Positions 19,786 through 55,748 of a stretch of DNA of 64,000 nt are shown here, one piece after another. This DNA comes from Escherichia coli 042 (GTDB lineage: Bacteria; Pseudomonadota; Gammaproteobacteria; Enterobacterales; Enterobacteriaceae). The stretch lies in the NCBI RefSeq assembly GCF_000027125.1, contig NC_017626.1; one strand, 5' to 3'. The notes beneath the pieces were generated by a model. The model saw nothing but the letters and a program-made list of their open reading frames with translations. It searched no databases and had not been told where the DNA came from. The position numbers and the translations under genes were made by a program. Numbering within the stretch: position 1 is the stretch's first letter; each line of letters opens with the position of its first letter.

Positions 19786-19836
19786 ATGACACGCGTTCAA
19801 TTTAAACACCACCATCATCACCATCATCCTGACTAG
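19786..19836 (+). CDS. hisL: his operon leader peptide, 16 aa with seven consecutive His codons
   Basis: ATG ACA CGC GTT CAA TTT AAA CAC CAC CAT CAT CAC CAT CAT CCT GAC TAG. Confidence 0.95.
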   Translation: MTRVQFKHHHHHHHPD

Positions 19837-19900
19837 TCTTTCAGGCGATGTGTGCTGGAAGACATTCAGATCTTCCAGTGGTGCATGAACGCATGAGAAA

Positions 19901-19933
19901 GCCCCCGGAAGATCACCTTCCGGGGGCTTTTTT
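19901..19933 (+). terminator. his attenuator terminator
   Basis: gcccccggaag (19901-19911) / cttccgggggc (19917-19927) stem followed by TTTTTT at 19928-19933. Confidence 0.85.
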
Positions 19934-19981
19934 ATTGCGCGGTTGATAACGGTTCAGACAGGTTTAAAGAGGAATAAGAAA

Positions 19982-27197: not shown

Positions 27198-28175
27198 TTA
27201 TTTCGCGTTGTAATTGCGTAGAGCGTTACGCCCCAGCACAATCCCCGCGCCAACCATGCCACCCAGTAGCACTGCCAGAATCAAGGTAATTGCCTTTTTC
27301 GGGCTATCGCGACGAATAGGTAACGTCGGTTTCATCACATAACGGTAAGCATGAATATCAAGATCATCAACCTTTAAGCTTTCGATATCCAGCAGGTTTT
27401 GACGAGTCTGATAGTAGTTTGGTGAGAACACCAACGGACGGGTCGCCTCATGCTTAATCATCGACTCCAGTGCTTCGCTCCCAAGAAGGAACAACGTATC
27501 TTGCGTCACATCTTCAGTCTGCTGAACCTGTGGTTTTGTCACCTGCGCCTGATTCGCATACTGCAATGCTTCCTGAATCTGACGGATACGCAGATCTTTC
27601 TGCTCCTGCGCGACCACTTCCTGCGTTCTTAAAGAGTCCTGCAAGTTTTTCCGTCCCAGAGCAATGTTGTCTTTGAGATCCTTTTCTAGCTCTTGATTCA
27701 CTTTATCGTCAACTTGCTGAATGTATTGGGCCAACTTCATTTGTGCGCCCTCTGCAGTTTGCCCAACATAAGAAACAGTCAATGGTAATTGCTGGTTCTT
27801 AACAGAAGGTTCGATGGTAAGTTTTTCTGGTTCTTCCTGATTATCCAGCGTTTCTGCTAATGCAGAGAAGGCAGAACTGAAGCGACCAATCAACGTCTCC
27901 TGCAAATCTGACACTTTCGGTGCAGCCTGACCATAGATAACATTCATGGCATTGTTATAGCCAGCGATTTGCCCCACATCAGGTTGAGTAACGATAGCTG
28001 TGGAAGTCCACTTTTCTTTGGCAACGGCCAGATACCCTATAGCCAGGGCAATAGCAACAATGACAGAGATGATGATTGTCATCTTGCCACGCCACAACTG
28101 CATTAGTAAATCAATCAAATCAATCTGTTCCGGGTCATGGTTTTGCCCAGAAACATTATTATTTTCTACTCTCAT
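27198..28175 (-). CDS. wzzB: O-antigen chain-length determinant WzzB (Cld)
   Basis: Start set at MRVENNNVSGQNHDPEQIDLIDL; N- and C-terminal membrane helices flanking a coiled-coil periplasmic domain. Confidence 0.9.
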   Translation of the reverse strand: MRVENNNVSGQNHDPEQIDLIDLLMQLWRGKMTIIISVIVAIALAIGYLAVAKEKWTSTAIVTQPDVGQIAGYNNAMNVIYGQAAPKVSDLQETLIGRFSSAFSALAETLDNQEEPEKLTIEPSVKNQQLPLTVSYVGQTAEGAQMKLAQYIQQVDDKVNQELEKDLKDNIALGRKNLQDSLRTQEVVAQEQKDLRIRQIQEALQYANQAQVTKPQVQQTEDVTQDTLFLLGSEALESMIKHEATRPLVFSPNYYQTRQNLLDIESLKVDDLDIHAYRYVMKPTLPIRRDSPKKAITLILAVLLGGMVGAGIVLGRNALRNYNAK

Positions 28176-28320
28176 CATTACCCTAACTGACGGAAATTTC
28201 CAAGTCCGCATAGTTTAGCGATAATCCTCGTGAATGCTATAGGATAAGTGATAAAAATAATGAATTATTGAGGAAGTAACAAAAGACAATCAGGGCGTAA
28301 ATAGCCCTGATAACAAGATG

Positions 28321-29736: not shown

Positions 29737-31143
29737 TTAATCCAGCCATTCAGTATGGAACACACCTTCTTTATCAATGCGCTTATAAGTATGTGCACCG
29801 AAATAGTCACGCTGTGCCTGGATCAGGTTCGCAGGCAGAACAGCGGCACGGTAGCTATCGTAATAGGCAACCGCAGCGGCGAAGGTCGGAACCGGGATAC
29901 CGTTTTGTACTGCATAAGCAACGACATCACGCAGCGCCTGCTGGTAGTCATCAGCAATTTGCTTGAAGTACGGAGCCAGCAGCAGGTTAGCGATCTGCGG
30001 ATCTTCGGCATAAGCATCGGTGATTTTCTGCAGGAACTGCGCACGGATGATGCAGCCAGCACGGAAAATCTTCGCGATTTCGCCGTAGTTCAGATCCCAG
30101 TTGTACTCTTCAGACGCGGCGCGTAGCTGAGAGAAGCCCTGAGCGTAAGAAACGATTTTGCCCAGATACAGCGCACGGCGAACTTTTTCGATGAACTCAG
30201 CCTTGTCGCCTGCTGGCTGCGCTTGCGGGCCAGAGAGAACTTTAGACGCGGCAACGCGCTGATCTTTCAGAGAAGAGATATAACGTGCAAACACAGACTC
30301 GGTTATCAGCGACAGCGGTTCGCCGAGATCCAGCGCACTCTGGCTGGTCCATTTGCCCGTACCTTTGTTTGCTGCTTCATCCAGAATCACATCAACCAGG
30401 TAGTTACCGTCTTCATCTTTTTTGGTGAAGATATCTTTGGTGATGTCGATCAGGTAGCTGCTCAGTTCACCGTTATTCCACTCGGTAAAAGTCTGCGCCA
30501 GTTCTTCGTTGGTGAGGTTCAGGCCACCTTTTAGCAGAGAATAGGCTTCAGCAATCAGCTGCATATCGCCGTATTCAATACCGTTGTGAACCATCTTCAC
30601 ATAGTGACCTGCGCCATCGGCACCAATATAGGTAACGCATGGCTCACCGTCTTCAGCTACTGCGGCGATTTTGGTCAGGATCGGTGCAACCAGTTCATAG
30701 GCTTCTTTCTGCCCACCAGGCATGATGGAAGGTCCTTTCAACGCCCCCTCTTCACCGCCGGAAACACCGGTACCGATGAAGTTAAAGCCCTCTGCTGAAA
30801 GCTCACGATTACGACGAATAGTGTCCTGGAAGAAGGTGTTACCACCATCAATGATGATGTCACCTTTATCGAGATATGGTTTGAGGGAATCAATAGCAGC
30901 ATCCGTGCCTGCACCTGCTTTCACCATTAACAGGATGCGACGAGGGGTTTCAAGAGACTCGACAAACTCTTTCACCGTGTAATAAGGAACCAGTTTCTTA
31001 CCCGGGTTCTCGGCAACAACTTCTTCAGTTTTTTCGCGGGAGCGGTTGAAGACGGAGACGGTATAACCACGGCTTTCGATGTTGAGCGCCAGGTTGCGCC
31101 CCATCACTGCCATACCGACGACGCCGATCTGTTGCTTGGACAT
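29737..31143 (-). CDS. gnd: 6-phosphogluconate dehydrogenase (decarboxylating), 468 aa
   Basis: N-terminus [30 protein letters not shown]; length. Confidence 0.95.
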
Positions 31144-31295
31144 TACATACTCCTGTCAGGTGTGGTCACCGCGACATACGCGGTTATGCTTGTAAAGCAG
31201 ATAGTATCAAACAATTAGTAATCTATGTTAGAACTTACTCAAGCTAAGTGTTCATAAATAGAACAAACTAATTCTATTCAAAGAGGACTCATTGA

Positions 31296-32531
31296 TTACA
31301 TTTCGAATGTTTTTTTAGGACGCATCTTTTTTATCATAAAAAAGCTGCAGAGAAGTAATATGAAACTAATACACTCTACAAGCAGAATCGTCATAGCAGC
31401 ACCTTTAACACCGTACTTCATTATTAAGAAATACATAGTTGGTATCGATGTCAAAATGCAAACATACGAAACATACAAACCCACTTTATAAAACCCCTGT
31501 GACTGAATTATTGCAGTTGTACCACCATTGATACATTTCACACATGCAACAATCAAGAACATCATTATCAAGAAATCATTATTAACATTAGAAATCAATA
31601 CAAAATGACCCAGGTATTTTATTATAAAGAAATAAACTAATGAACTCAGCACGCCATATGCCACAATACATAACAGGAACTGAAACACCTTAGTAAAAGC
31701 ATTTTTTTCTTGTAAGTTAATTCGGCAAAATCTTGCATAGGCAACTGTAGAAAATACAGAAGAAACCATAACCAGTGGATCAACCATCCTAAATATCTGG
31801 CCATATGCTGCAAGATCCCCTGGGGCAAATGTCTTGAGATAAAAATTATCTATACGGCTATAAATAATTACAACAACAGCTGTAAGACCTATACTTAATG
31901 TATATTTATATAAAGAAAGAATTGACATTAGCACATCAAAAGCTGACGTTCTAATAAACCTAAACTTGACACTAACGAATAGTTTTAGTGTAACCAGCGA
32001 TACGAATAATAGTTCAACACACAGGTAATCCCATGCGTTAAATTTAACGTTTAAAAAATACTGAATAGCGAAGATCGTACACGTTGCAATAGATGCAATT
32101 GCGATCGGAACCGTGAGAGATTTATTGGAATTGAGAGATTGAAAATAGCTATTTGAGAAATTAAAAAATAAAGCAACAGGTAAGGCTAACACAATAGGAA
32201 TATAGACATTATATTGATAACCCTGAACAAAAGAATACAAACAAAACAGTAGTAAAACAATTACTCCAGAAAGAATTTTTTGTGCAAACGTTACATTTAA
32301 TAGTTTTATTTTATCTGTAGAATCATTATATTTTTTTATAACAAACAGATCCACACCAAAATCAGTAACCACCCGAAGGACTTCGAGAAAACCAACTAAA
32401 AAAATGAACTCTCCGCCTACATCTTCTCCTAAGGAACGAGTAATCAGAATTATTGCAAGTGTTTTAAAACCGAAGTAACATATTTTATTAAATAGCGAAA
32501 AAATGCCATCGGAGAAAATTTCTTTGATCAT
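31296..32531 (-). CDS. wzx: Candidate O-antigen flippase Wzx, 411 aa
   Basis: AT-rich multi-pass membrane protein; N-terminal pattern ...TLAIILITRSLGEDVGGEF typical of Wzx; last gene of the cluster before gnd. Confidence 0.6.
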   Translation of the reverse strand: MIKEIFSDGIFSLFNKICYFGFKTLAIILITRSLGEDVGGEFIFLVGFLEVLRVVTDFGVDLFVIKKYNDSTDKIKLLNVTFAQKILSGVIVLLLFCLYSFVQGYQYNVYIPIVLALPVALFFNFSNSYFQSLNSNKSLTVPIAIASIATCTIFAIQYFLNVKFNAWDYLCVELLFVSLVTLKLFVSVKFRFIRTSAFDVLMSILSLYKYTLSIGLTAVVVIIYSRIDNFYLKTFAPGDLAAYGQIFRMVDPLVMVSSVFSTVAYARFCRINLQEKNAFTKVFQFLLCIVAYGVLSSLVYFFIIKYLGHFVLISNVNNDFLIMMFLIVACVKCINGGTTAIIQSQGFYKVGLYVSYVCILTSIPTMYFLIMKYGVKGAAMTILLVECISFILLLCSFFMIKKMRPKKTFEM

Positions 32532-32572
32532 GTCATGCCTACTGGTGAGATCCTGGTCGAAAAATAAACCAC

Positions 32573-33904
32573 TTACTGACCATGATAAATTTTATTTTTA
32601 ACAAGTAATGGAGATATAAGAACAATCGGCAATGATTTTAGAAGAAAAGCCAATGGCAAAATCAGTTCACCACGAACAGCATAAAAAAATCCAGATATCA
32701 TGGAGATGGCAACAAAGTTTATTATTATCCGTTGATTATTTAGTCCCCATTTAATAAAAAGCATCACCCCTGATAAATACAGTAAATAAATAATCACTCC
32801 CAAGTTTAGACTCAGCAACGATGACTCTAACAATCCTGAAGATGACAACGCAATACCAGAGGATACATCACCTAAAACAATTATTGAAAAATCTTTTGCG
32901 ATTTGTTGATCATCAAGAAAACCAAGACCGCTTAGCGGTAATACTTGTGTGAATACCACAGCGGGATGAAGTTGATCCCATCCTGATGATTGCATATCAA
33001 ACAAATTCTGCATCCCCCCAAGAGTAGAGGATAGCGAATCTAAAACAATGCCAATATAAATCATAAAATCGATTTGGTACCCTTCACGGAAATACGATAC
33101 CATCGAGAAGCATAAAAAACCGGCGATGAGAAATATTGGTTTTGAGAGTTGCTTAAATAAATTTCTTACTCTATACTCATTAGAGTACATATATAGTATA
33201 AAAATACAAATCACTGAAAAGAAAAACTTATTACGTATTCCAATAGCTAAATCAGATGCAAGTAAAACAAATGCAATAACTTTAATGTAGGTCGGTGTTT
33301 TAAAATAAAAAGTGGACAATGACATTACAACTGCAAAACCACTAATAGCACGAATAAAAAATGGAACTTGGGATAGCAATTCTTCGCTTTCAGTATAAAT
33401 TGCTAAATGCCCTTCTCCTGAATTCAATATAAACATAAGATAAATTAATATTTTGTATAATTGACACAGTGCAACAATAGAAAACAAAATATAAAATAAA
33501 CTAGTTAAATATCTTTTTTCTTCTTTTATGACAGTCTCTGTTGTTTGCAAGTAAAGGATGGAATTGATCAACATCCCCCAGATACAAATTATTTCAAACC
33601 CATGATTTGCGTTTTTAAAATAGTAAAGATAAATCGATGGCAAACCAATAATCAAAGAAAAAACGAATGCAAAAAGTAAGGTTAGTGATAAATAGCGAAC
33701 TCTATTAATATAATAATAGAACATCAAAACAACTAATAGCGCTGTAGATATAGTGGCTAAAATATCAATATACACTTGCGATACAAATGTATCCGCCCCT
33801 CCCCACAAGAAACATGAGGATAGTGAAAGAAATACAGAAAAATATATAGCCAGATGTTTAAACTGTATTTTATTGCACAATAATGAATAATATTGCTTAT
33901 GCAT
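32573..33904 (-). CDS. wzy: Candidate O-antigen polymerase Wzy, 443 aa
   Basis: Very AT-rich, highly hydrophobic multi-pass protein with no soluble domains; adjacent to wzx. Confidence 0.5.
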   Translation of the reverse strand: MHKQYYSLLCNKIQFKHLAIYFSVFLSLSSCFLWGGADTFVSQVYIDILATISTALLVVLMFYYYINRVRYLSLTLLFAFVFSLIIGLPSIYLYYFKNANHGFEIICIWGMLINSILYLQTTETVIKEEKRYLTSLFYILFSIVALCQLYKILIYLMFILNSGEGHLAIYTESEELLSQVPFFIRAISGFAVVMSLSTFYFKTPTYIKVIAFVLLASDLAIGIRNKFFFSVICIFILYMYSNEYRVRNLFKQLSKPIFLIAGFLCFSMVSYFREGYQIDFMIYIGIVLDSLSSTLGGMQNLFDMQSSGWDQLHPAVVFTQVLPLSGLGFLDDQQIAKDFSIIVLGDVSSGIALSSSGLLESSLLSLNLGVIIYLLYLSGVMLFIKWGLNNQRIIINFVAISMISGFFYAVRGELILPLAFLLKSLPIVLISPLLVKNKIYHGQ

Positions 33905-34087
33905 AGTAATTAGCTTTACTAGTGAAGTAACTCATTTGAAAAATAAGAAACAGTTAATTTTACAATCTCTTATTCGGGATGAACGCAAATAAAAACACCA
34001 ATGCTAAATATAAACAATTTATAAACAATCTATTACTGAGCGGTTAAATGACAAACCGCTCAAGAGTAGAAAAAAGTTTATATTTTT

Positions 34088-35509
34088 TTACAAAAGAGTA
34101 ACTTTATGCAAAACTTCTAACACTAATTTTTCAGCTTTTATTATGTTATCTGCTTCTGCATAGCATCGCAATTCAGGTGCGTTGCCTGACGGTCGCAAAT
34201 GGATTATTGAACCATCACTTAGTGTCAATCTTAACCCGTCAATTGTATCCACCGATTGTACATGAAGATCGACAAAGCCTATTCTTTCGATAAATTCTTG
34301 AGGATTTTCTTGAGCTGACGCGATAATGCTTTTGCTTTTGCTTGTTGCAAAATTTTGAACTCTATTTGAGTAGGTAAATCGTGGTGGCAACTCCGCCAAG
34401 AGTTTTGAAATAGTCACATTATTTTTTATAGCCAGTGCCAGTACCATTAAAGCAGGCAAAACAGCATCTCTTGTTGGAAGCGCTTTAATCATACCGCTGT
34501 TATAATTTACATCGCTACCTAAAAGATACCCACCGTTAGCCTCAAACCCTGCAACCCTATCAAAACTATTATTCAGAGAATCAAACGCTGAAATGACGTA
34601 TGGTGAACCAATTTTAGTCAGCGTTACATGATTAAACCACCCGCAAGTCTGAATAACCGTATTACAACTTACAGGTACAGCTACCGCTTCAATATTCATT
34701 GCCTTTGAGCAAAATAGTCCTAATATATCACCCCGTAACCAAACGCCATTTTCGTCAGCAACCAAAGGACGATCGCCATCACCATCGGTAGAAAAAATCA
34801 TATCGAGGTCATACTCAGATGACCAGTGTAAAGCTTTTTCTTCATCTTCTTTTGATACTGCTTCAGTATCAATAGGCACAAACTCATCACTTCTACCAAT
34901 ACTTACAACTTCAGCACCAAGCTTACTGAATATTTCTGAATAAAGATCCCGTCCCGCACTTGAATGTTCATAAATCCCGATACGTTTACCTTTAAATATA
35001 TTTGAAAAAATTGAAGTGTTTCTCTCGATATAAGTATCAGCGGCACGCTTTGAACATTGTAATTCTGGCAATACAGTTACATCAGGATACTCTTTTTCAG
35101 CATGTATAATGCTGTTCTCATTTTCTTTTGAAATTTCCCCGTCTGGACGATAGAATTTCAAACCATTTCTATCAAATGGAATATGACTTCCAGTAACCAT
35201 TATTGCAGGAATCCCATCGGCAATCGCTTGATTTGCCAAAGCTGGAGTTGGAATTACACCGTAGTAAATAGGTTTAATACTACATTCCAACAATGCTGCT
35301 GCGCAAGCTTGTGCCATAGCATAGCTGCTTGGGCGATTATCTATTGCGAGCGCAACCTCTTTAAAAGAAAAATCCTTCATCATTACATCGATAAAAGCAT
35401 AAGTGAATGCAGCACACACGTTGGGTGTAAAATCTTTCACTAATCCACGAGCACCACTTGTACCAAATGCAATTCCGCTATTTTTAATTACATCATTGGT
35501 AATATTCAT
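34088..35509 (-). CDS. manB: Phosphohexomutase, ManB-like (start at M13 of the ORF preferred, 5 nt after the manC stop; the ORF could extend to 35545)
   Basis: Phosphoserine-loop motif [11 protein letters not shown] (variant of TASHNP); tightly coupled to manC; GAGGA upstream of ATG 35509. Confidence 0.65.
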
Positions 35510-35513
35510 ATAA

Positions 35514-36929
35514 TTATTTATCCTCAACACGACCATATTTATCACTTAGGCGCACAATATCATCATCACCTAGATATACACCCGACTGAATCTCAATTAC
35601 TTCTAATGGTATCTTTCCTGGATTTTCCAAGGTATGAACTGTGCCAATTGGTATGAAAGTTGACTCATTTTCAGTGACGAAAAAAGTGCGTTCGCCGCAA
35701 GTCACCTTTGCAGTACCAGCGACAACCACCCAATGCTCAGCTCGATGATGATGCATTTGTGTTGAGAGACATTCACCAGGCTTAACGGTAATACGCTTTA
35801 CCTGATAACGGTCGCCACGTTCTACAGAATCATAACGTCCCCAAGGACGATAGACTTCGCGATGGGATATATGTTCGCTACGTTTTTGCTTTTTAAGAAT
35901 TTCGACAATCTTCTTTATGTCTTGTACGTTGTCTTGCTGTGCTACCAGGAGCGCATCTTTAGTTTGAACTATAATAAGGTTATTAACTCCTACAGTGCTG
36001 ATCAGTGAACCTTCAGAGTAAATGTAGTTGTTCCTGCTGTCATAGTTAATTACATCGCCATGCGATACGTTTTCATGTTCATCTTTCTCTGATATTTCCC
36101 AAAGTGATGTCCATGAACCGATGTCACTCCAGTCAGCATCAAGTGGAATAACTACACAATCCTGAGTTTTTTCCATTACCGCATAATCAATTGACTCATC
36201 GGGACATTCTGCAAAGACATCAGAATTTAATCTGATAAAATCTAGATCAGTACTAGCACTGGAAAGCGACTCTTTACACGCTGCTAAAATATCAGGGCGA
36301 AATTTTTTCAATTCATCTAAATATACGCTCGCCTTGAACATGAACATACCACTATTCCACAAATAGCATTTTTGTTCGAGATAATTTTTAGCCGTTTCTA
36401 AATCAGGTTTTTCGACGAAAGAATTTACTTTAAATACAGAGTTTTTAACTTGTTCGCCCTTTTTAATATAGCCATACCCAGTTTCAGGTTTGGTCGGGAC
36501 GATGCCAAAAGTCACTAACTTATTGTCAACGGACTCTTGTTCTGCAGCTAAAACAGCTGCATGGAAGGCTTCAATATCCTGAATAGCATGGTCAGCAGCA
36601 AGAACCAGCATATGATGATCGCCATGGAGTTCTAGAGACTTTAGAGCAGCCAGCGCAACGGCGGGCGCAGTATTTCTACCTACAGGTTCTAGAATAATCT
36701 GGAAGTCATCCACACCGAACTGTCGCAATTGTTCAGCAACAATAAATCTATGCTCATTATTGCTAACAATGACAGGAGGCAAACAATTTAATCCATCAAG
36801 TCTCTTCAACGTTTCCTGGAGCAAACTATTTTCATTAATCAATGATAAAAATTGTTTCGGGTATAACGAACGCGAAAGAGGCCATAAGCGAGTACCAGAA
36901 CCACCGGCCATAATAATTGGGATAATCAT
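35514..36929 (-). CDS. manC: Mannose-1-phosphate guanylyltransferase / mannose-6-phosphate isomerase, 471 aa
   Basis: N-terminus [28 protein letters not shown]; C-terminal cupin region; roughly 60 percent identical by eye to the cpsB product in the same window. Confidence 0.85.
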
Positions 36930-36930
36930 T

Positions 36931-38133
36931 TTATTTAACAGACTCCTTAATTTTCTGGATATATGGGCTCAATTTAGCTTCCCATGAAAAATTCTCACCG
37001 ATAAACTTTTTCGCAACTAATGCTGTTTCGGTATATTTATCCAGATTTGTTATAAAATAATTTAATACACGTAAATATTCTTCTTTTGTATTGGCAACAT
37101 AAATCTCCTTACCCTCCTCTGCTCCCAAGCCTTCAAAGCCTACAGTAGAAGAGATACAAGGTAATCCCAACGCCATATATTCAAGTACCTTATTTTGGAT
37201 ACCTGCCCCTAATCTAATAGGACATACACCAATATGCCCATCAGCTGCTGCATAAGTTATGCTATCAACTTCACCTGTGACAACAACGCCAGGCTGGCTT
37301 TCTAACCAACTCTTATCTTTATCTGTAATACGTCCGATGACCTTAAATTCAAAATTACCATGCTTGTTAAGAAATGGTAAAACTTCCTTGGTGAACCATC
37401 TCACACCATCCATATTTTGCAAAGAATATAAATTACCTATAAATACAAGGGTTATCTTTTTATCTTTAGCTATTTTTCGTTCTGAAAAAGGTAAGCTAAC
37501 GGCATCAACACCATTTCCACAGACTAATACATTATTCGGACGGTCTGGATATAAATAATCGGAGTCAACCTGTGATACCAAAGTAGTCAAGCTGAACTTG
37601 TTATTTATAGTTCGCTCATATCGTTCGAGTCTTTTTTGTTCAAAAGAATATACAAATGTTTTTAAACTCAATAAAGATGCTTTTTCCTTTACTCGTTTAT
37701 AATTAAGTGAAATGGCATCGGTCATCTCTAAAAAATTTATATCTTTATTCTCTTTCACATAATCACCAACCCTTATCAAATGTGAAAGAGTTGCAGAATG
37801 TTCAGGTAATAACTGCTTAAGTTTATCTTCAAATTCTTTAGATTTATAATACCCAATCTGTAGGGGAGTATTTGAAAACAAAGAGAATATGACATTTAAA
37901 ATAGATTTTTTCTTTGAAAGATATACTCTGTGAACACTACTAAAAACTTCACGATCATATTCATAGTTGAGCTCTTCGCGTTTATCACACAGACTCAGCA
38001 ACGTAAGATCATAATGCTTAGACAGTTCTTTACAGATCTTATAGATACGTAATCGATCCCCACCAATGACAGGAAACGGGAACCGTGGAGTCAAAACTAA
38101 TATCTGTTTCTTATTTATATCAATATTACTCAT
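36931..38133 (-). CDS. Glycosyltransferase, GT4 (family 1) type, 400 aa
   Basis: C-terminal motif [26 protein letters not shown] (E-x7-E-like); AT-rich. Confidence 0.75.
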
Positions 38134-39163
38134 AAATCTTTCTCAATTCATTTTCAAATAAAATATGTTCATGCAGAGCTTTCCTTTCGACACTGGGTGA
38201 ATTATCTACCAAGTATGAATAGACTTCATAATACTCAGAATAGTAAGTATAAAAGAAAATATTCGAATCCTTTTGTTCGCGGAAAGCAGAGATCCGTGTG
38301 CATATAACATTTTTGCATGTGAGTTTTGCTTCAGCTAAAGTCCTTCCATACCCCTCGGCAAGCGAATGAGCCCAAACAATTTTAGAATTACAATATAGTT
38401 TGACGACTTCCTCTAAAGAAACAAAACCAATAATTTCAATTTCTTTATCTGTATCCCGCCCATCAATTAAGTCGTTAACCTTGCTAATACCATTCCCACA
38501 ACCTAATATTTTTAATGGTATTCTTTCTTCCCTTGGGATTGAAAAATAATAGTCCAGAGCTGTGCCTAGATCCTTATTATCCCCTAAACCTGAAACTAGA
38601 AGTAAATATCCAAGATCTTTTATTTCGGTAACATTAGCAATTTTCTCAAATGAGAAAAATGGATTTGGGAGCAGGATAGATTCTATACACTTAAATAGCG
38701 ATATTCTCTTAGATACTCGCTGAGTGCTTTGAGAAATAAATATTACTTTCTTTGCTAAAAAAGATGAAAAATAAATACAGACTTTCACATAAATGGCAGC
38801 AAGATTTCGTTTATTTTTCTTAAGACTAATGAAGTCATGAATTATAACAATTGCCTTACCTAATAACAAGTCAATGATGGAACTACTATTATAGGGATAT
38901 ATATTATACTTAGTTCTATAAAATATACCCATAATTGGTATTAAAAGCTGCTCTACTATTATAAAAAGAACATTCAGAAACCATGAAGGCAGCTTATGGA
39001 ATGCTTTTGGACATGCAACATAAATAACCTGAACATTATTGTCTCTTAACTTTTGCACAAGTTCAGAAGTATAGATCGGTATTCCTCTTTTCAAAATACC
39101 ATCAAAAAAATTATTTACAATTACTTTCATGTTTGCTCTTAAGTTTATTTCAGATATTATCAA
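38126..39163 (-). CDS. Glycosyltransferase, GT4-like, 345 aa; first gene of the O-antigen operon
   Basis: C-terminal SLAEGYGRTLAEAKLTCKNVI motif; overlaps the downstream glycosyltransferase by 8 nt. Confidence 0.65.
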   Translation of the reverse strand: MIISEINLRANMKVIVNNFFDGILKRGIPIYTSELVQKLRDNNVQVIYVACPKAFHKLPSWFLNVLFIIVEQLLIPIMGIFYRTKYNIYPYNSSSIIDLLLGKAIVIIHDFISLKKNKRNLAAIYVKVCIYFSSFLAKKVIFISQSTQRVSKRISLFKCIESILLPNPFFSFEKIANVTEIKDLGYLLLVSGLGDNKDLGTALDYYFSIPREERIPLKILGCGNGISKVNDLIDGRDTDKEIEIIGFVSLEEVVKLYCNSKIVWAHSLAEGYGRTLAEAKLTCKNVICTRISAFREQKDSNIFFYTYYSEYYEVYSYLVDNSPSVERKALHEHILFENELRKIYE

Positions 39164-39229
39164 TAGTATAAAAATAGTCAGGATTATTATTTCTTATTTT
39201 GAGAACGCATCATATAAACACAATCTTAC

Positions 39230-39268
39230 CACGCTACCGCCCCTGGCTTAACAGCTACCAGTGCACTA
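39230..39268 (-). promoter_or_regulatory. JUMPstart element with ops (GGCGGTAGCGTG on the transcribed strand) in the O-antigen operon leader
   Basis: Plus strand cacgctaccgcccctggcttaacagctaccagtgcacta; ops reverse complement at 39230-39241; near-identical copy upstream of wza. Confidence 0.7.
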
Positions 39269-39523
39269 GCAAAATGCCAAAGATGTACCCCGCCCCGCTA
39301 GCTATCGCAAAGCTATCTTAAATTCAAACGCCAATTGTCTTACCAAATGCTGTCAGAAACAAGGATAAATCCAACAAAAAATAGATTAAACTTAGTAGGT
39401 TAACTCGTTGTTATTCTTTGTTTTAAAAAGAAAAACGACAGTAACATTCCTTTGTTTAAAGCATAGACGCCGGGATGTTAGCTGCCGCTATTTATCTAAA
39501 TTATTGTTACATTGGCTTGGGAT

Positions 39524-40417
39524 CTATTCCCCGAGCAACTTCTCAATGCTCTTACGGAACTTTGGCCCTTCCTTCAGGTTGCGCAGTCCATACTTCACAA
39601 ACGCCTGCATATAGCCCATTTTTTTACCGCAGTCGTAGCTGTCGCCGGTCATCAGCATGGCATCAACGGACTGTTTTTTCGCCAGTTCGGCAATAGCATC
39701 AGTCAGCTGAATACGCCCCCATGCACCAGGTTGCGTGCGTTCAAGTTCCGGCCAAATATCGGCAGAAAGCACATAGCGACCAACGGCCATGATGTCTGAG
39801 TCCAGCGTCTGCGGCTGATCCGGTTTTTCGATAAATTCGACGATGCGGCTGACTTTACCTTCACGATCCAGTGGTTCTTTGGTCTGAATGACGGAGTATT
39901 CAGAGAGGTCACCCGGCATACGTTTTGCCAGCACCTGGCTGCGGCCCGTTTCGTTGAAGCGCGCAATCATGGCAGCAAGGTTATAGCGTAGCGGATCGGC
40001 GCTGGCGTCATCGATAACAACGTCTGGCAGTACCACGACAAATGGGTTGTCACCAATGGCAGGTCGTGCACATAAAATGGAGTGGCCCAAACCTAAAGGT
40101 TCGCCCTGACGCACGTTCATAATGGTCACGCCCGGCGGACAGATGGACTGCACTTCCGCCAGTAGTTGACGCTTCACGCGCTGTTCAAGGAGAGATTCTA
40201 ATTCATAAGAGGTGTCGAAGTGGTTTTCGACCGCGTTCTTGGACGCGTGAGTTACCAGGAGGATTTCTTTGATCCCTGCAGCCACAATCTCGTCAACAAT
40301 GTACTGAATCATTGGCTTGTCGACGATCGGTAGCATCTCTTTGGGAATCGCCTTAGTGGCAGGCAACATATGCATCCCAAGACCCGCTACAGGAATAACT
40401 GCTTTTAAATTCGTCAT
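39524..40417 (-). CDS. galF: UTP-glucose-1-phosphate uridylyltransferase paralogue GalF, 297 aa
   Basis: Start set at [14 protein letters not shown]; position between the O-antigen and colanic acid clusters. Confidence 0.9.
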
Positions 40418-40591: not shown

Positions 40592-41986
40592 CTACTCTCT
40601 CCGTTCTGGCAATCTAAAGTTAATCTTTTCCACATTAACAATATGGTGATTAACCCTGTCGATATCGACGGAGCTTTGCCCTCTTTCATTCACCGCATGA
40701 ACATTTGCAAGAGACAGCAGTGTTTCTTTTTTCGCCATAAAGACGCCGCGAACGTCTTTGCGCATGTCGAAGTTCATGCTCAATGCGGGTCCAACAGAGG
40801 ATTCCTGCATCACTTTGATATTTCGTATAAAAAGATGTTGCGGTTTGTTGTGTAACTCCAACGAGGCACGCTTCATCTCAATGTTAGTCAGTGCAACAAA
40901 GGAGACAGCATTCCCGGCAGAGATTTGGATACCGCGCAATTTGTAAGCAAGGTGGGTGTTATCCAGCTGAATATTATTCACTCGGAAATTTTGCGGTATC
41001 GAGAGATATTTGCCTTTAATTACCCCATAACCGATTAACATCCCGGCGCTATTAATCATTTCAATATTATCAATCACGAAATTGTCACAACCGTAAATAG
41101 CGACCGTGGCGTTATCAATACCTGCTTTCTTACTGAAATCCGGCGTGATATTGCGGGCTTTGATATTACGAATAACAAAATGTTTACCATTTTCAACATG
41201 GATCAGTTGTCGACAATCCGATCCCGTGATATTCGCCACGACAAAGTTTTTCACTGCCTGGTCTTCCGGGTAGTTATTATCATAAGTACTCCCCGCAAGG
41301 CCTATGCCGATTCCCCAGTTGATTTTGCCGTTGGTACAGTTGATGCGCTCGATGATGTGGTCGGAGATCAAAATATCACTGTCGTTAATCGCCACGTTCC
41401 ATTCAATGGCGTCCCCCTGTAAGTCGCTGAACTTACAATTGGTGATGTTGGCACCGATAATCTGGTTATGAAATCCCTGACGTAAGATGGCGTAATTAGC
41501 GTGGCTGACAGTGAGGTTATCGATGGTCAGGTTGCGCATGACCCGTTTGTTTTTGCCGCCGATATAAATCTGCGTTACTGGGCCAAAGCCGCTCATCGCC
41601 AGCCCTTTGATGGTGCAGTCAGAGCCGCGCACATCCAGGGTGATGTTATGCATACTGCCGCCCTCCTCCCCTGTCACCTGGCTGCCGTCTTGTAAGACAA
41701 AACGCCCTCTGCCGTTGCCGCGCAGGCTTCCAAGGATGTGTAACGTTTTGCCAGGAGGAATGAAGATGCCGGTGTTGATATTTTCACAAACCAATCCGGC
41801 AGGCACGACGACCGTTTGCCCTTCGCTGAAGGCTTGTTTAAATGAAGCAATCCAGTCGTGTGGGTTGTAGTCGTTAATGTTAACGCTTTGCCGGGCAGGA
41901 AGTGCTCGGGCGAAAGGCGTATGAAGGAAGGCAAGCGCCGAGCTTACCGTCAGGAAAGTGCGTCGGGAGAGTTTTTTAAATGGCAT
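40592..41986 (-). CDS. wcaM: Colanic acid biosynthesis protein WcaM, 464 aa
   Basis: Length identical to K-12; Tat-like signal (SRRTFL); last gene of the cluster. Confidence 0.9.
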
Positions 41987-41996
41987 ACGTTCTCCT

Positions 41997-43217
41997 CTAT
42001 AAAGCTTGCAGCAAGCTGGCGAGTTCTCGATTAATCACCTGCTGGTTAAAATCATGTTCGACTTTTTCGCGCGCACGTTTGATAACCGGAGCCAGTTCGT
42101 CGGTGTCCAGTTGGCTAAACGCCGCCAGTCGTTGCGCCAGTGCACGGGCATCGTTCTCAGGCACCAGCCAGCCGGATTTGTCAGCCTCCACCAGTTCCGG
42201 TATTCCGCTATGCAGAGTAGAAACCACCGGAATGCCGACCGCCATCGCTTCCATTAGCGCCACCGGAATGCCTTCCATATCACCATCCGCACCTGTAACC
42301 GATGGCAACAGGAAGACATCCGCGTCGTCGAGCATCGCTTTCACTTCGTGGCTCGGTTTAAAGCCCGGCATCTCCACCACATCTTCCAGTTGATATTGTT
42401 CGATGAGGGTGCGCAGGCGTCGTTCCCACGGGCCAATGCCGAGGATGCGATAGCGAAATGCCACGCCCTGCTCTTTCAACTGACGGCAGGATTCGATCGC
42501 CACATGCAGGCCTTTTTTCTCGGTTAAGCGTGCGACGGAGATGATTTCCAGCGGTATTGCGGGCGCTTTCACCGGACGCGGGCTAAAACGCGTCATGTCC
42601 ACGCCCATGCGCGATACGGCAATTTTTTCCCTCGGGCAGCCCATTTTTTGCAGCCTTCCGGCCCAGAGATCGCTGATCGGTAGCATCAAATCGCCACGGC
42701 GAAACAGTTGCTGATATTCGGGGGTGTAGTGGTTGAGCACTTCCCGACTGGAGATATCAATGCCGTGGAAGATAGTAGCGATTTTGCCGCGAATGACACC
42801 CAGTTCCCGTAGTTTTGCTGCGGTTACCCCCGCCGGGCCAAAATGAGCGATGAACACATCGGCATAAAATGGTGTTGCGACCTGGCCGCAAATGGCAGAC
42901 AAAATCAGGTTCCGCGACTCGGCACCATAGCGTTTGAGGTTGAGCGCCTGCCAGGTATTTTTGCGATGAATGCCGCGTAAGGTCTGGCTGGCGCGGTGGC
43001 GCAGCTTCGCCACTTTGCCCGTAGGTTCGTCCTGTAACCAGCGGGTTCTGGCGGCAAGGTTGTATTTCGTCCATGCCGCGTGGGTGTTTTGTGTGTCGCC
43101 TTTTTGCAGCGCGACAATCTCCACCTCAAATCCCATATCAATAAACGCAGTGATTTGGTTGAGAACGAAGGTTTCCGACGACAGCGGAAATTTCAGTAAA
43201 AAGAAGCCGACCTTCAT
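41997..43217 (-). CDS. wcaL: Colanic acid glycosyltransferase WcaL, 406 aa
   Basis: Length and order as in K-12. Confidence 0.9.
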
Positions 43218-44494
43218 TTCACCTCCCCGATGCGTTCAAGCACAGATTGCACCATCTGCATTCCCGTCTGACGTTCGCGACTGACGGCTTCGTTAAGTCG
43301 CGCGTTCAGCGCCGGAAGTTGGCCTAAGGTATCCGCAACCATCGCTTGCAGGCTGCCGTCCAGTAAATGACGGATATCAATTGCCATCTCTGGCAGCCCC
43401 AGCTGCTGCATAATCCCGGCGGATTTATGTTCATAGTTGATGGCAATCGCCGGAGTGGCAAAGTTCATCGAGATAATGGCTGAGTGCAGGCGCGTACCGA
43501 CGGTGAGTTCACTGGCACCGAGAATTTTGCCCATTTCCAGATCATTGAGTTCATCCATCACTACGTGGTAACGGGCAGGATCGCAGATGTGCTGGCGCAG
43601 ATTGAGCGCCACCATGCGGTCGTCTTTGTTATAGCTGTCGATGCCCGTACAGGTGGAGAGCGCAATGACCTGATAGCCTTCGTCGAGAATGCGATTGACC
43701 ACCCCGGCAAAGGCTTTTTCATACGCTTGTTGGGTGGTGCCGAGACGTTTGTCGAACGGTGCCAGTTCGCGCAGGGTAATTGCCACCGTTTTCTGTTGTG
43801 CGGCAACGTCCAGCCAGTGTTGAACGGCATAGCTGGCGGTGAAGTCTTCTGTGTGGTGATCGACCAGCCACGCGGTATCGACGCCATGTTCAACTTTTGC
43901 AGTGGAGATATTGCTGCGTTTCATCAAATCAAGGCTGACCGATTCGCGCAGGATCAGCGCATCGCAGTGACCAAAAACGTAGTTCGCCAGTTGGTTAAAT
44001 TGCTCATCCTGGAAGGGGCCGACGCTGTGACCAATCATAAACAGCGGCTTTTTCGCCATAAATGTGCAAAGCGCATGTTCAAACTGTGGCACGCCGTAGA
44101 GATCGACAAAAAACGATCCGCCGACCTGAATAATGGCGTCGTAACCTGACAGCAGGCGCACGAAGTCAGTGAATCCCTGGGCGATGGCGATATTACGCAA
44201 CTTGCCAGTGTCGGTGACGCGTGAGAGCAATACCTGATGCTGGTAGCGGCGACGGAGGACTTTTTTAACGCGCCCGACAACGCCCGCCACGCTGTTGTGT
44301 TGTTTCATTTGCAGGAACAGTGGATCGCCCATTACCGGGCGGTTGAGCAGCCAGGAAGAACTGACCGGATAGCGGCTCATCACGTCCACTTCGGCATGTG
44401 GATTGAGGATGTTGATGGCATCAAGTAAGCCGCGCAGGATGGCGCTGTCGCCACGATTGCCGCAAGTGTGGTTGCCCAGAATAAGTAATTTCAT
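43214..44494 (-). CDS. wcaK: Colanic acid pyruvyl transferase WcaK, 426 aa
   Basis: Length and order as in K-12. Confidence 0.9.
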   Translation of the reverse strand: MKLLILGNHTCGNRGDSAILRGLLDAINILNPHAEVDVMSRYPVSSSWLLNRPVMGDPLFLQMKQHNSVAGVVGRVKKVLRRRYQHQVLLSRVTDTGKLRNIAIAQGFTDFVRLLSGYDAIIQVGGSFFVDLYGVPQFEHALCTFMAKKPLFMIGHSVGPFQDEQFNQLANYVFGHCDALILRESVSLDLMKRSNISTAKVEHGVDTAWLVDHHTEDFTASYAVQHWLDVAAQQKTVAITLRELAPFDKRLGTTQQAYEKAFAGVVNRILDEGYQVIALSTCTGIDSYNKDDRMVALNLRQHICDPARYHVVMDELNDLEMGKILGASELTVGTRLHSAIISMNFATPAIAINYEHKSAGIMQQLGLPEMAIDIRHLLDGSLQAMVADTLGQLPALNARLNEAVSRERQTGMQMVQSVLERIGEVK

Positions 44495-44555
44495 TTTTTC
44501 CTCATAAATTTGATGCCAGGTGAAGCTGCGTTTGTTTTGTTCGTTGCCGCTTTTT

Positions 44556-44742
44556 GCCTGATGCGACGCTGGCGCGTCTTATCAGGCCTACAAGACCCGA
44601 GCACAGAACCGTAGGCCGGATAAGGCGTTCACGCCGCATCCGGCATTCAGTGCCTGATGCGACGCTGACGCGTCTTATCAGGCCTACAGGTCCCGAGCAC
44701 AGAACCGTAGGACGGATAAGGCGTTTTACGCCGCATCCGGCA
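44556..44742. repeat. Tandem pair of BIME units (each a REP pair) between wcaK and wzxC
   Basis: gcctgatgcgacgctg[g/a]cgcgtcttatcaggcctaca...gtagg[c/a]cggataaggcgtt...cgccgcatccggca present twice, about 96 bp apart. Confidence 0.7.
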
Positions 44743-44769
44743 ACCATTGCCGGAACCGAAAACAACAAC

Positions 44770-46248
44770 TCACCCCGCCCGTAAAAGCATTTTCATTTTT
44801 TCGCTGCGACAAAACTGACGCTTCACTTCCACCACCAGCGGATGGCGCGACAGCACAATCATCACTACAAACGCCAGCACGCCTGCGGCTATTTGCACCG
44901 CCAGCAGCATCCCCAGCGCCAGTTGCCCTTTCAGCACAATGCCCAGCGCATAACTGACCACCAGCGTCGGCAGCGAGAGATAAAACGGCAGCCATAAACT
45001 CAGGATGTACTGGCGATAACTGGAACCGAGCACCGGTTTAATCATCACGAAGTAACTCAGAATGGTGTTGATAATCTGCACCAGCAGGAAGCCGAGCGTG
45101 ACGCCGATTGCGCCCGCCATTTGCCCACCTATAACAATCGCCGGAATAAACAGAAAGGTTTTGAATACGTTGAATTTAAAGCTGATATCGACCCGCGCTT
45201 TCGCCATCAGCAGCGAACCAATCGGGTTCCCCACTGAGCGCAGCAGCCCCACCACACACAGTAAATGCAGCACCGGAATAATGCTGTTCCACTTCTCACC
45301 AAAGACCAGCGGTACAAAGTTATTCGACACCACCATCAGCCCCAGCAGCGCCGGAAAGTTGATAATCCCCACCACCGACAGCAGCTTGTAGAAGTTGACG
45401 CGCAGCTTTTCGGTGTCGTCCTGAATTTTGGCAAATGCCGGAAACAACACGCGGGTGATGATCGGGTTCAGCTTCATCGGCGGCACAACGGCCACGTTGT
45501 ACGCCAGGTTGTATCCCCCTGCCACGCCCGCGCCAAGAATACGCGCCAGCACCAGCGTTGAAAGGTTGGTGTTGAGATAGTTGATGATGCTGTCCGCCGT
45601 CAGCCAGGCACCAAAACGTAAGTTCGGTGCTACCGACGCCAGCGAGAAGTGCAGACCGGGACGATAAATTTTGCGGCCAAAGTAGCCAAACAGCAGCGTT
45701 CTTACCGTACTATTGACCAGATAACCGAGGATCGCGGTCATCGCCAGCGGCCAGAAATGGGCGCTAACCACAGTAAAAGTGAAGCCCGCCAGCACCGCGC
45801 TGGTTTCGATCATGCCGATTTTGTTGAACTCCAGCTCCTTCTGCATCAACGCGCGGAACTGTTGCCCGTGGGGGATCACCACAAACGCCAGCGACAATGT
45901 TTTAATCAACGGTGCCAGGTCCGGGTTATTCAGCACGTCGCCGATGAGATCACTCAACAAAAACACCGCCACGCACACCACGATCCCCAGCCCGACGTTC
46001 AGCCAGTACAGCGTGGTGAGTTCAAGGTGGCTGATTTCTTTTCGCTGAATAATCGAGTTAGCGATACCGAAGTCAGAAAGCGTATCTGCCAGCGCGATAA
46101 TCACCAGCGACACAGTCAGCAGGCCGAACTGGTGGTTGTCGATAATCCGCGCCAGCACGGTCATCTGTACCAGCCCGAGGCCGATGATGATCACCGTGGC
46201 AATCGCCGACCACTTCGCGCCGCTGATGGTTTTTTCACGTAAGCTCAT
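44770..46248 (-). CDS. wzxC: Colanic acid repeat-unit flippase WzxC, 492 aa
   Basis: Length and order as in K-12; multi-pass membrane protein. Confidence 0.9.
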   Translation of the reverse strand: MSLREKTISGAKWSAIATVIIIGLGLVQMTVLARIIDNHQFGLLTVSLVIIALADTLSDFGIANSIIQRKEISHLELTTLYWLNVGLGIVVCVAVFLLSDLIGDVLNNPDLAPLIKTLSLAFVVIPHGQQFRALMQKELEFNKIGMIETSAVLAGFTFTVVSAHFWPLAMTAILGYLVNSTVRTLLFGYFGRKIYRPGLHFSLASVAPNLRFGAWLTADSIINYLNTNLSTLVLARILGAGVAGGYNLAYNVAVVPPMKLNPIITRVLFPAFAKIQDDTEKLRVNFYKLLSVVGIINFPALLGLMVVSNNFVPLVFGEKWNSIIPVLHLLCVVGLLRSVGNPIGSLLMAKARVDISFKFNVFKTFLFIPAIVIGGQMAGAIGVTLGFLLVQIINTILSYFVMIKPVLGSSYRQYILSLWLPFYLSLPTLVVSYALGIVLKGQLALGMLLAVQIAAGVLAFVVMIVLSRHPLVVEVKRQFCRSEKMKMLLRAG

Positions 46249-46249
46249 A

Positions 46250-47644: not shown

Positions 47645-47698
47645 CGTTGTTCCTGTTATTAGCCCCTTACCCGCAGTGGGGTAAGGGAAGATCCGACA

Positions 47699-49069: not shown

Positions 49070-49170
49070 ATCGTTACCCTTTTTCAGGCAATAGTTGGCC
49101 CTGACCGAAACGGCCAATTTTGTTTTTGTCGTTATTTACCGGAGAATTAATCCGGTTGATTATTCAACTG

Positions 49171-50607: not shown

Positions 50608-50609
50608 AA

Positions 50610-53277: not shown

Positions 53278-53279
53278 GC

Positions 53280-54401: not shown

Positions 54402-54427
54402 GTCTTATTCCTCTGTATTTTTTGAAT

Positions 54428-54976: not shown

Positions 54977-54991
54977 CGTTTTCCCTTATAT

Positions 54992-55738: not shown

Positions 55739-55748
55739 GTTCTTATTC

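What the first reader, a model, noticed from the sequence alone, without database searches (positions are those of the whole stretch)
31296..39268. Compact AT-rich six-gene O-antigen cluster (two GTs, manC, manB-like, wzy, wzx) of undetermined serogroup
Between galF and gnd lie only six genes behind a JUMPstart: two GT4 glycosyltransferases, manC, a manB-like mutase, and two very AT-rich polytopic membrane proteins assigned as Wzy (443 aa) and Wzx (411 aa). The content predicts a short, mannose-containing repeat unit initiated by WecA. Base composition is visibly much more AT-rich than the flanking gnd and colanic acid genes, consistent with horizontal acquisition. The serogroup cannot be named without a database, and the wzx/wzy pair is the part most likely to be new or rare.
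Basis: partly seen in the sequence, partly recalled or inferred. Interest (0 to 1): 0.5.

Follow-up and report, generated by a model that had tools for sequence, protein, structure and literature searches.

The report
Known E. coli O77-group O-antigen cluster
This is the well-described six-gene O-antigen cluster shared by E. coli serogroups O17, O44, O73, O77 and O106, found almost unchanged in about 1.7% of complete E. coli genomes, so it is ordinary and not a new serogroup.

Summary
Six intact minus-strand genes (GT, GT, manC, manB, wzy, wzx) lie between galF and gnd behind an Rfam-confirmed JUMPstart, at 30-40% GC against about 50% in the flanks. The functional reading (Wzx/Wzy-dependent, mannose-containing, WecA-initiated) is right. 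The hope that wzx/wzy are new or rare is refuted by the finding's own criterion. The 7,973-bp region differs by only 2 bases from the O17 reference strain K12a. The full cluster occurs in 93 of 5,426 complete E. coli genomes, where RefSeq names the genes 'O17/O44/O73/O77/O106 family' polymerase and flippase. This is the published O77 group (Gp9, 'O77g'). Its backbone is ->6)-a-Man-(1->2)-a-Man-(1->2)-b-Man-(1->3)-a-GlcNAc-(1->. The five serogroups differ only by glucose side-branches added by gtr genes elsewhere, and the window holds none, so the exact serogroup cannot be read from it. The window's alleles and flanks match public assemblies LR134238.1 and GCA_036599305.1, and share accessions that I recall as EAEC 042 (O44:H18), which makes O44 a plausible lead only. 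Horizontal acquisition is supported: a Citrobacter portucalensis assembly has the same cassette at about 98% identity with flanks at 73-87%. Verdict: already known, low interest.

The parts
39230..39268 (-). JUMPstart element containing the ops octamer GGCGGTAG (39234-39241). It is the RfaH-dependent antitermination signal in the leader of the O-antigen operon.
   Evidence: Rfam RF01707, 59.2 bits, E = 4.6e-11; sequence read directly
38126..39130 (-). Glycosyltransferase, 334 aa (WP_000864846.1). It has a GT-B 'group 1' C-terminal domain and an EX7E motif at residues 259-267. It is a putative mannosyltransferase.
   Evidence: Pfam PF00534 at 1.9e-10 and PF13692 at 1.4e-6; nucleotide-identical to O17 K12a; RefSeq annotation; motif
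36931..38133 (-). Glycosyltransferase family 4 protein, 400 aa (WP_000065081.1). It overlaps the upstream GT by 8 nt and is a putative mannosyltransferase.
   Evidence: Pfam PF13692 at 9.9e-19; NCBIfam TIGR03087 full-length match at 9.4e-62, below the cut-off; identical to O17 K12a
35514..36929 (-). manC: bifunctional mannose-1-phosphate guanylyltransferase / mannose-6-phosphate isomerase, 471 aa. It carries D297 where O17 K12a has N.
   Evidence: NCBIfam TIGR01479, 755 bits against a cut-off of 373; 60% aa identity to the colanic-acid CpsB in the same window; SNP at window 36041
34088..35509 (-). manB: phosphomannomutase of a divergent class, 473 aa (WP_001027885.1). The catalytic motifs GSHIP, DGDGDR, GFEANGG and RPSGNAPE are present.
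   Evidence: PDB 4hjh 'Phosphomannomutase' at E = 1.1e-95; all four PGM_PMM Pfam domains on the identical protein; only 24% identical to CpsG
34037..34062 (-). Stable hairpin (9-bp stem, 8-nt loop) just downstream of the manB stop codon, inside the 183-nt manB-wzy spacer. Its function was not established.
   Evidence: RNA fold of 34020-34087 (-): -21.5 kcal/mol, z = -6.9 against shuffles; coordinates
32573..33904 (-). wzy: O17/O44/O73/O77/O106-family O-antigen polymerase, 443 aa (WP_000549530.1)
   Evidence: Nucleotide-identical to O17 K12a; RefSeq name; polytopic by hydropathy, with a stretch of about 117 aa (residues 240-356) below the hydrophobicity threshold; NCBIfam TIGR04370 at 30.4 bits, below the cut-off of 40; no Pfam hit
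31296..32531 (-). wzx: O17/O44/O73/O77/O106-family O-antigen flippase, 411 aa. It carries V141 where O17 K12a has F.
   Evidence: Pfam Polysacc_synt PF01943 at 1.1e-7; RefSeq name; this exact variant is on record on 82 contigs; SNP at window 32111
27198..28211 (-). wzzB: O-antigen chain-length regulator. It lies outside the cassette, downstream of gnd and ugd, and is a functional partner of Wzy.
   Evidence: Collinear with annotated wzzB in L001 and L002

Best explanation
The region is the published O-antigen gene cluster of the E. coli O77 group (Iguchi group Gp9, 'O77g': serogroups O17, O44, O73, O77, O106). The first three steps below are inferred from established knowledge of the Wzx/Wzy pathway; the repeat-unit structure is from the literature. 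RfaH, recruited at the ops site of the JUMPstart, lets transcription run through the six genes. ManB and ManC convert mannose-6-phosphate to GDP-mannose. WecA, encoded elsewhere, puts GlcNAc-1-P on undecaprenyl phosphate. The two cluster glycosyltransferases then add three mannoses, with one enzyme adding two of them, to give Man-(a1->2)-Man-(a1->2)-Man-(b1->3)-GlcNAc-PP-Und. Wzx flips the unit, Wzy polymerises it through an a-GlcNAc-(1->6)-Man linkage, WzzB sets the chain length and WaaL ligates the chain to lipid A-core. The cluster encodes only the common backbone. Whether the strain types as O77 (bare backbone) or as O17, O44, O73 or O106 depends on prophage-borne gtr glucosylation genes elsewhere in the chromosome, which are not in this window. 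The alleles and flanks match a public lineage that is probably the O44:H18 EAEC 042 lineage. That would make O44 the most likely serogroup, but this sub-claim carries only about 0.5-0.6 confidence.
For: The 7,973-bp region matches 93 complete E. coli genomes over its full length, and the best matches differ by 2 bases. RefSeq names the genes 'O17/O44/O73/O77/O106 family O-antigen polymerase/flippase'. Against the O17 reference strain K12a, both GTs, manB, wzy, gnd and galF are nucleotide-identical, and manC and wzx each differ by one base. Literature: the five clusters are more than 99% identical, the backbone structure is given, the side-branch Glc is added by gtr genes, and one GT transfers two Man (PMC7685785). 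The group is called Gp9 with 100% identical GTs in O17, O44, O73 and O77 (PMC4379981). 'O77g' cannot be resolved by genoserotyping (PMC13188871). Family tests: ManC equivalog above the cut-off; PMM close to 4hjh; Wzx Polysacc_synt; both GTs group 1; JUMPstart in Rfam. No gtr in the window: it is collinear with annotated loci from agn43 to wza. O44 lead: the exact Wzx and ManC variants carry accessions CBG35107.1 and CBG35110.1, three apart as expected for wzx-wzy-manB-manC in one record. The 042 genome paper assigns Ec042-2270-99 to the O44 O-antigen and places gtrAB plus Ec042-0853 on prophage 042p1 (PMC2808357).
Against: Nothing found here contradicts membership of the O77 group. Caveats follow. 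No serology or polysaccharide chemistry can be done here. Wzy has no Pfam match and is below the NCBIfam cut-off, so its role rests on identity to the annotated, literature-assigned protein and on hydropathy. The assignment of linkages to the two GTs has not been shown biochemically as far as I could find. The link between the CBG accessions and strain 042 is from memory and was not verified with tools. NC_017626 and LR134238 are absent from the annotated collection, and no paper in the library names LR134238.
Confidence: 0.97

Rival explanations
1. The cluster encodes a new or rare O serogroup whose wzx/wzy pair is not in reference sets.
For: Wzy has no Pfam hit and Wzx has no NCBIfam hit, so generic profile libraries alone make the pair look orphan-like.
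Against: wzy and wzx are at least 98.8% identical in 93 of 5,426 complete genomes. wzy is nucleotide-identical to the O17 reference strain. The exact proteins are on record on about 82 to more than 1,000 contigs. They are named in RefSeq and described in three papers.
Confidence: 0.01
2. The cluster is present but non-functional (a rough strain or decaying locus), so no O antigen is made.
For: Two non-synonymous differences from O17 K12a (ManC N297D, Wzx F141V). The closely related assembly LR134238.1 shows split wzy, ugd and wzz gene calls.
Against: All six ORFs in the window are full length. The two variant proteins recur on 82-88 independent contigs, so they are a lineage allele and not a lesion. 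The splits in LR134238.1 coincide with 4 single-base gaps against the window and no mismatches, a pattern I interpret as assembly indel errors. The JUMPstart is intact.
Confidence: 0.03
3. The mannose polymer is made by an ABC-transporter (Wzm/Wzt) pathway like the E. coli O8/O9 polymannans, and the two membrane proteins are something else.
For: The content is mannose-only, with manC and manB next to mannosyltransferase-like GTs, as in O8/O9.
Against: The cluster has no wzm/wzt or any ABC ATPase gene. The 411-aa protein matches Polysacc_synt, the Wzx family. The 443-aa protein gives a weak polymerase-family hit. The published structure is a heteropolymer repeat with GlcNAc in every unit, which requires Wzy-type polymerisation.
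Confidence: 0.01

Closest known systems
E. coli O17/O44/O73/O77/O106 O-antigen gene cluster (O77 group; Gp9 of Iguchi et al. 2015; 'O77g')
   Same: Same locus (galF-gnd), same six genes in the same order, and 2 mismatches in 7,973 bp against the O17 reference strain K12a. Both GTs, manB and wzy are nucleotide-identical.
   Different: There are two non-synonymous SNPs (ManC D297, Wzx V141). They mark a sub-lineage that is itself common in public data, on 82-88 contigs.
Citrobacter portucalensis GCA_023910405.1 galF-gnd cluster (locus L010)
   Same: Same six genes in the same order and at the same locus, with 97.5-98.2% nucleotide identity per gene.
   Different: The host genus differs. Flanking wcaM, galF and gnd are only 73%, 80% and 87% identical, and the high-identity block ends at about window 31,000 and 39,400.
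Salmonella enterica O6,14 (group H) O antigen, which shares this backbone (Wang et al. 2007, cited in PMC7685785). The details here are from my own knowledge; the primary paper is not in the searchable library.
   Same: Same four-sugar backbone and the same kind of gene set, according to the title and discussion cited in the review.
   Different: Not tested here, because no Salmonella collection was searched. From memory the Salmonella cluster is much more divergent in sequence.
E. coli O8/O9/O9a polymannan clusters
   Same: They contain manC and manB plus GT4-type mannosyltransferases, one of which adds more than one mannose (review).
   Different: Those clusters use the Wzm/Wzt ABC-transporter pathway and make homopolymers. 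This one has wzx and wzy and a GlcNAc-containing repeat.

Membership tests
E. coli O77-group (Gp9) O-antigen gene cluster | Located between galF and gnd, downstream of a JUMPstart | tested here: met
   ORF map and annotated homologous loci; Rfam JUMPstart at 39230-39268
E. coli O77-group (Gp9) O-antigen gene cluster | Gene content and order: GT, GT, manC, manB, wzy, wzx, and nothing else | tested here: met
E. coli O77-group (Gp9) O-antigen gene cluster | More than 99% DNA identity to reference clusters of the group (criterion stated in PMC7685785) | tested here: met
   2 mismatches in 7,973 bp (99.97%) against O17 strain K12a and against ECA64
E. coli O77-group (Gp9) O-antigen gene cluster | Group-specific wzx and wzy alleles, the targets of genoserotyping | tested here: met
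   wzy is nucleotide-identical to K12a and wzx differs by 1 nt; 93 genomes carry both at 98.8% identity or more
E. coli O77-group (Gp9) O-antigen gene cluster | O polysaccharide with the Man-Man-Man-GlcNAc backbone, and agglutination with O17, O44, O73, O77 or O106 antiserum | not testable with these tools
   Needs NMR or serology of the source strain
Individual serogroup within the group (O17 vs O44 vs O73 vs O77 vs O106) | Presence and type of gtr glucosylation genes outside the cluster | not testable with these tools
   The window is collinear with annotated loci from agn43 to wza and holds no gtr genes. The rest of the source genome is not available. The O44 lead rests plus memory.
Wzx/Wzy-dependent O-antigen pathway | A Wzx flippase of the MOP / Polysacc_synt family | tested here: met
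   Pfam PF01943, E = 1.1e-7, residues 17-263; highly hydrophobic polytopic profile
Wzx/Wzy-dependent O-antigen pathway | A Wzy polymerase: a polytopic membrane protein with a large periplasmic loop | tested here: inconclusive
   Crude Kyte-Doolittle analysis gives about 9-11 hydrophobic segments and a 117-aa stretch below threshold. NCBIfam TIGR04370 scores 30.4 bits against a cut-off of 40. There is no Pfam hit. The assignment rests on identity to the curated RefSeq 'O-antigen polymerase'.
Wzx/Wzy-dependent O-antigen pathway | No wzm/wzt ABC transporter in the cluster, and wzz nearby | tested here: met
CAZy GT4 (retaining GT-B glycosyltransferases) | GT-B 'group 1' domain with an EX7E-type motif; retaining chemistry | tested here: inconclusive
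   Both GTs hit Pfam group 1 families. The 334-aa GT has EX7E at 259-267, and the 400-aa GT has A-x7-E at the equivalent site. RefSeq names only the 400-aa protein as family 4. PDB sequence searches were uninformative. One of the three mannosyl linkages is beta and so needs inversion, and the chemistry of each enzyme was not tested.
JUMPstart / ops RfaH-dependent leader | The 39-nt conserved element containing GGCGGTAG upstream of the first gene | tested here: met
   Rfam RF01707, 59.2 bits against a gathering score of 35; sequence

The most novel reading that the evidence does not exclude
One of the two Pfam 'group 1' glycosyltransferases must make the beta-Man-(1->3)-GlcNAc linkage by inversion, while the other adds two alpha-1,2 mannoses. 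If both are true GT4-family proteins, one would be an inverting enzyme in a family defined as retaining. Otherwise the 334-aa or the 400-aa protein belongs to an unclassified GT-B beta-mannosyltransferase family. Neither enzyme seems to have been characterised biochemically. Separately, the cassette is shared at about 98% identity with Citrobacter portucalensis, and that transfer is not reported in the library I searched.
Probability: 0.3. Interest if true: 0.25.

Novelty: already known. Interest (0 to 1): 0.07.

Why it matters
It matters little as a discovery, because the cluster, its polysaccharide backbone and its typing ambiguity were published years ago and are built into RefSeq naming. 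It has some practical relevance. O77g strains include the uropathogenic ST69 lineage and a 2025 STEC O77g:H18 HUS outbreak (PMC13188871), and the O44:H18 EAEC prototype 042 carries this cluster. The case also shows that the O-antigen locus alone cannot name the serogroup when gtr prophages modify the backbone.

Tried and rejected
(1) A PDB sequence search with the two GTs, meant to type them as retaining or inverting, gave only E > 0.09 hits and was uninformative. (2) I tried to read strain 042 (NC_017626.1) and NZ_LR134238.1 from the annotated collection, but neither is held. A literature search for LR134238, GCA_900636225, CBG35107 and GCA_036599305 found nothing; only FN554766 is cited, in EAEC papers. 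The 042/O44 link therefore stays a lead. (3) The primary paper (Wang et al. 2007, Microbiology) is not in the library, so its conclusions are taken second-hand from the review. One paper search failed on a formatting limit. (4) I considered that the window's colanic-acid flank, at best 97.8% identical to any of 5,426 complete genomes, might mark an unusual Escherichia lineage. I rejected this as a novelty because it is 100% identical over 17,060 nt to public assemblies that are simply absent from that collection, and its substitutions fall mainly at third codon positions. (5) A search for a published Citrobacter/O77 link found nothing relevant.
Full report
OBSERVATION. All are on the minus strand between galF (39524-40417) and gnd (29737-31143). 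They are a 334-aa glycosyltransferase (38126-39130), a 400-aa glycosyltransferase (36931-38133, overlapping the first by 8 nt), manC (35514-36929), manB (34088-35509), a 443-aa membrane protein (32573-33904) and a 411-aa membrane protein (31296-32531). Rfam RF01707 matches 39230-39268 (-) at 59.2 bits against a gathering score of 35, and the ops octamer GGCGGTAG is visible at 39234-39241. The compositional contrast is real. The six genes have 31.5-40.1% GC (GC3 26-32%), against 51% GC (GC3 55-57%) for gnd and galF.

IDENTITY. A megablast of 31296-39268 against 5,426 complete E. coli genomes finds the whole region in 93 of them. The best hits differ by two bases. RefSeq annotates the two membrane proteins as 'O17/O44/O73/O77/O106 family O-antigen polymerase' (wzy) and 'flippase' (wzx). 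The wzy-wzx segment alone occurs in the same 93 genomes at 98.8% identity or more. Against the O17 reference strain K12a, both GTs, manB, wzy, gnd and galF are identical at the nucleotide level. The only differences are one base in manC (D297 here, N in K12a) and one in wzx (V141 here, F in K12a). The finding's own refutation criterion, 'high-identity wzx/wzy hits to a defined O-group', is therefore met.

LITERATURE. The review of E. coli O antigens (PMC7685785) states that the O17, O44, O73, O77 and O106 clusters are more than 99% identical. It gives the shared backbone as ->6)-D-Manp-(a1->2)-D-Manp-(a1->2)-D-Manp-(b1->3)-D-GlcpNAc-(a1->. O77 is the bare backbone, and the other four carry D-Glc side-branches proposed to be added by gtr genes elsewhere. 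[quoted passage not shown] The review also notes that one glycosyltransferase of this cluster transfers two mannoses, which explains two GTs for three mannosyl linkages. Iguchi et al. (PMC4379981) call the group Gp9 and report 100% identical GT proteins in O17, O44, O73 and O77. A 2026 paper (PMC13188871) calls it 'O77g', states that the five serogroups cannot be separated by genoserotyping, and is the source of several of the best-matching genomes (ECA64, O17_K12a).

PROTEIN-LEVEL TESTS. ManC passes the NCBIfam equivalog model TIGR01479 (755 bits, cut-off 373). The mutase is a divergent phosphomannomutase. It is only 24% identical to the colanic-acid CpsG encoded 13 kb away but matches the solved 'Phosphomannomutase' 4hjh at E = 1e-95. 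Both GTs match Pfam 'Glycosyl transferases group 1' families (PF00534 at 1.9e-10; PF13692 at 9.9e-19). Wzx matches Polysacc_synt (1.1e-7). Wzy has no Pfam match and a sub-threshold NCBIfam polymerase hit (30.4 bits against 40). Crude hydropathy shows a polytopic protein with a stretch of about 117 aa below threshold, which is compatible with Wzy but not proof. Its assignment rests on identity to the curated protein.

MECHANISM. The steps are inferred from established Wzx/Wzy-pathway knowledge, and the repeat-unit structure comes from the literature. RfaH acting at ops lets transcription read through the operon. ManB and ManC supply GDP-mannose. WecA, which is not in the window, starts the unit with GlcNAc-P. 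No initiating transferase is encoded in the cluster, and GlcNAc is the reducing-end sugar. The two GTs add three mannoses. Wzx flips the unit, Wzy polymerises it, the nearby WzzB (27198-28211) sets chain length, and WaaL ligates the chain. One detail is unresolved. The first mannose is beta-linked, which requires inversion from GDP-alpha-mannose, whereas GT4 enzymes retain configuration. The 334-aa GT has an EX7E motif (residues 259-267), and the 400-aa GT has A-x7-E at the equivalent site. PDB sequence searches were uninformative, so I cannot assign the linkages.

WHICH SEROGROUP. The window runs collinearly from agn43 to just upstream of wza, with no inserted genes relative to annotated loci. 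It therefore contains no gtr operon, and the serogroup within the group cannot be read from it. There is a lead. The exact Wzx(V141) and ManC(D297) proteins are on record on 82 and 88 contigs, with accessions CBG35107.1 and CBG35110.1. These are three apart, as expected for wzx-wzy-manB-manC in one record. From memory the CBG series belongs to EAEC strain 042 (O44:H18). The 042 genome paper assigns Ec042-2270-99 to the O44 O-antigen and places gtrAB plus Ec042-0853 on prophage 042p1 at 0.88-0.92 Mb (PMC2808357). The window matches public assemblies almost perfectly. Window 21296-42531 matches GCA_036599305.1 with one mismatch, and matches LR134238.1 with no mismatches and 4 single-base gaps. 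Window 46941-64000 matches GCA_036599305.1 at 100%. These genomes and 042 are not in the annotated collection. O44 is thus plausible, at about 0.5-0.6, but not shown.

HORIZONTAL ACQUISITION. This is supported on three levels. (i) There is the GC and GC3 trough. (ii) There is mosaicism within E. coli. Against strain ECA64 the window is nearly identical from about 14.9 kb to 41.5 kb (6 mismatches, his operon to wcaM) but 2-3.5% divergent outside that block. The divergent stretches differ mostly at third codon positions, so the divergence is natural. (iii) There is sharing between genera. A Citrobacter portucalensis assembly (named by its source) has the same six genes between galF and gnd at 97.5-98.2% nucleotide identity, while wcaM, galF and gnd are 73%, 80% and 87% identical. 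The high-identity block spans about window 31,000 to 39,400, which is the low-GC cassette plus the JUMPstart region and the first ~140 nt of gnd.

VERDICT. The novelty claim is refuted, because this is an already known, common and well-annotated O-antigen cluster. Interest is low. The residual open points are the exact serogroup, the division of labour between the two GTs, and the Citrobacter link. These are minor.

Noticed in passing
L010:10001-17835 (Citrobacter portucalensis GCA_023910405.1, contig JAIOGV010000004.1), corresponding to window ~31000-39400: The same six-gene cassette sits between galF and gnd in a Citrobacter assembly at 97.5-98.2% nt identity, while the flanking genes are 73-87% identical. 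This points to relatively recent transfer of the whole cassette between genera, with breakpoints in the galF-GT intergenic region and the 5' end of gnd. A search of the paper library found no report of it.
   Followed up: partly
window 14900-41500 compared with 41500-59177 and 11297-14900: Against strain ECA64 there is a near-identical block of about 26.6 kb (6 mismatches) running from the yefM/his operon through the O-antigen cluster into wcaM. It is bounded by DNA with 2-3.5% divergence, and a second near-identical island lies at about 43000-45000. This is the mosaic recombination pattern expected around the O-antigen locus.
   Followed up: partly
window 45100-63900: The colanic-acid flank is at best 97.8% identical to any of 5,426 complete RefSeq E. 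coli genomes, with a long flat list at 97.7%. It is 100% identical to GCA_036599305.1 and LR134238.1. The source lineage is therefore public but missing from the annotated collection, and it is fairly distant from everything in that collection at this locus.
   Followed up: yes
window 32111 and 36041: The only two differences from the O17 K12a cluster are both non-synonymous (Wzx F141V, ManC N297D). They travel together on about 80 public contigs. This marks a sub-lineage allele of the cluster, and its functional meaning is unknown.
   Followed up: partly
window 34037-34062 (-), in the 183-nt manB-wzy spacer: A strong hairpin (9-bp stem) lies immediately after the manB stop codon. The 68-nt context folds at -21.5 kcal/mol with z = -6.9 against shuffles. 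It has no clear T-run. It could be an mRNA-stabilising or attenuating structure inside the operon.
   Followed up: partly
window 63546-63584 (-): A second JUMPstart element (Rfam 57.3 bits) lies upstream of wza at the head of the colanic-acid operon, as expected for that operon.
   Followed up: no
window 49074-49123 (-), 44614-44684 (+), 16998-17072 (-), 19812-19935 (+): Other Rfam matches above gathering score are the algC RNA motif just upstream of cpsG, naRNA4 (REP-derived) between wzxC and wcaK, STnc240, and the His leader. All look ordinary for this chromosomal region.
   Followed up: no
window ~15416-15491 (between plaP and sbcB): About 1.5 kb carrying tsuA/tsuB (yeeE/yeeD) is present in strain FDAARGOS_1058 (L003:19687-20986). 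It is absent from the window and from ECA64, where plaP is followed directly by sbcB.
   Followed up: no
L006 and L008 (LR134238.1): This chromosome assembly matches the window with no mismatches but has scattered single-base gaps. Its wzy, ugd, wzz, hisD, gmd and yegH gene calls are split or shortened. I interpret these as homopolymer indel errors of the assembly and not real pseudogenes.
   Followed up: partly
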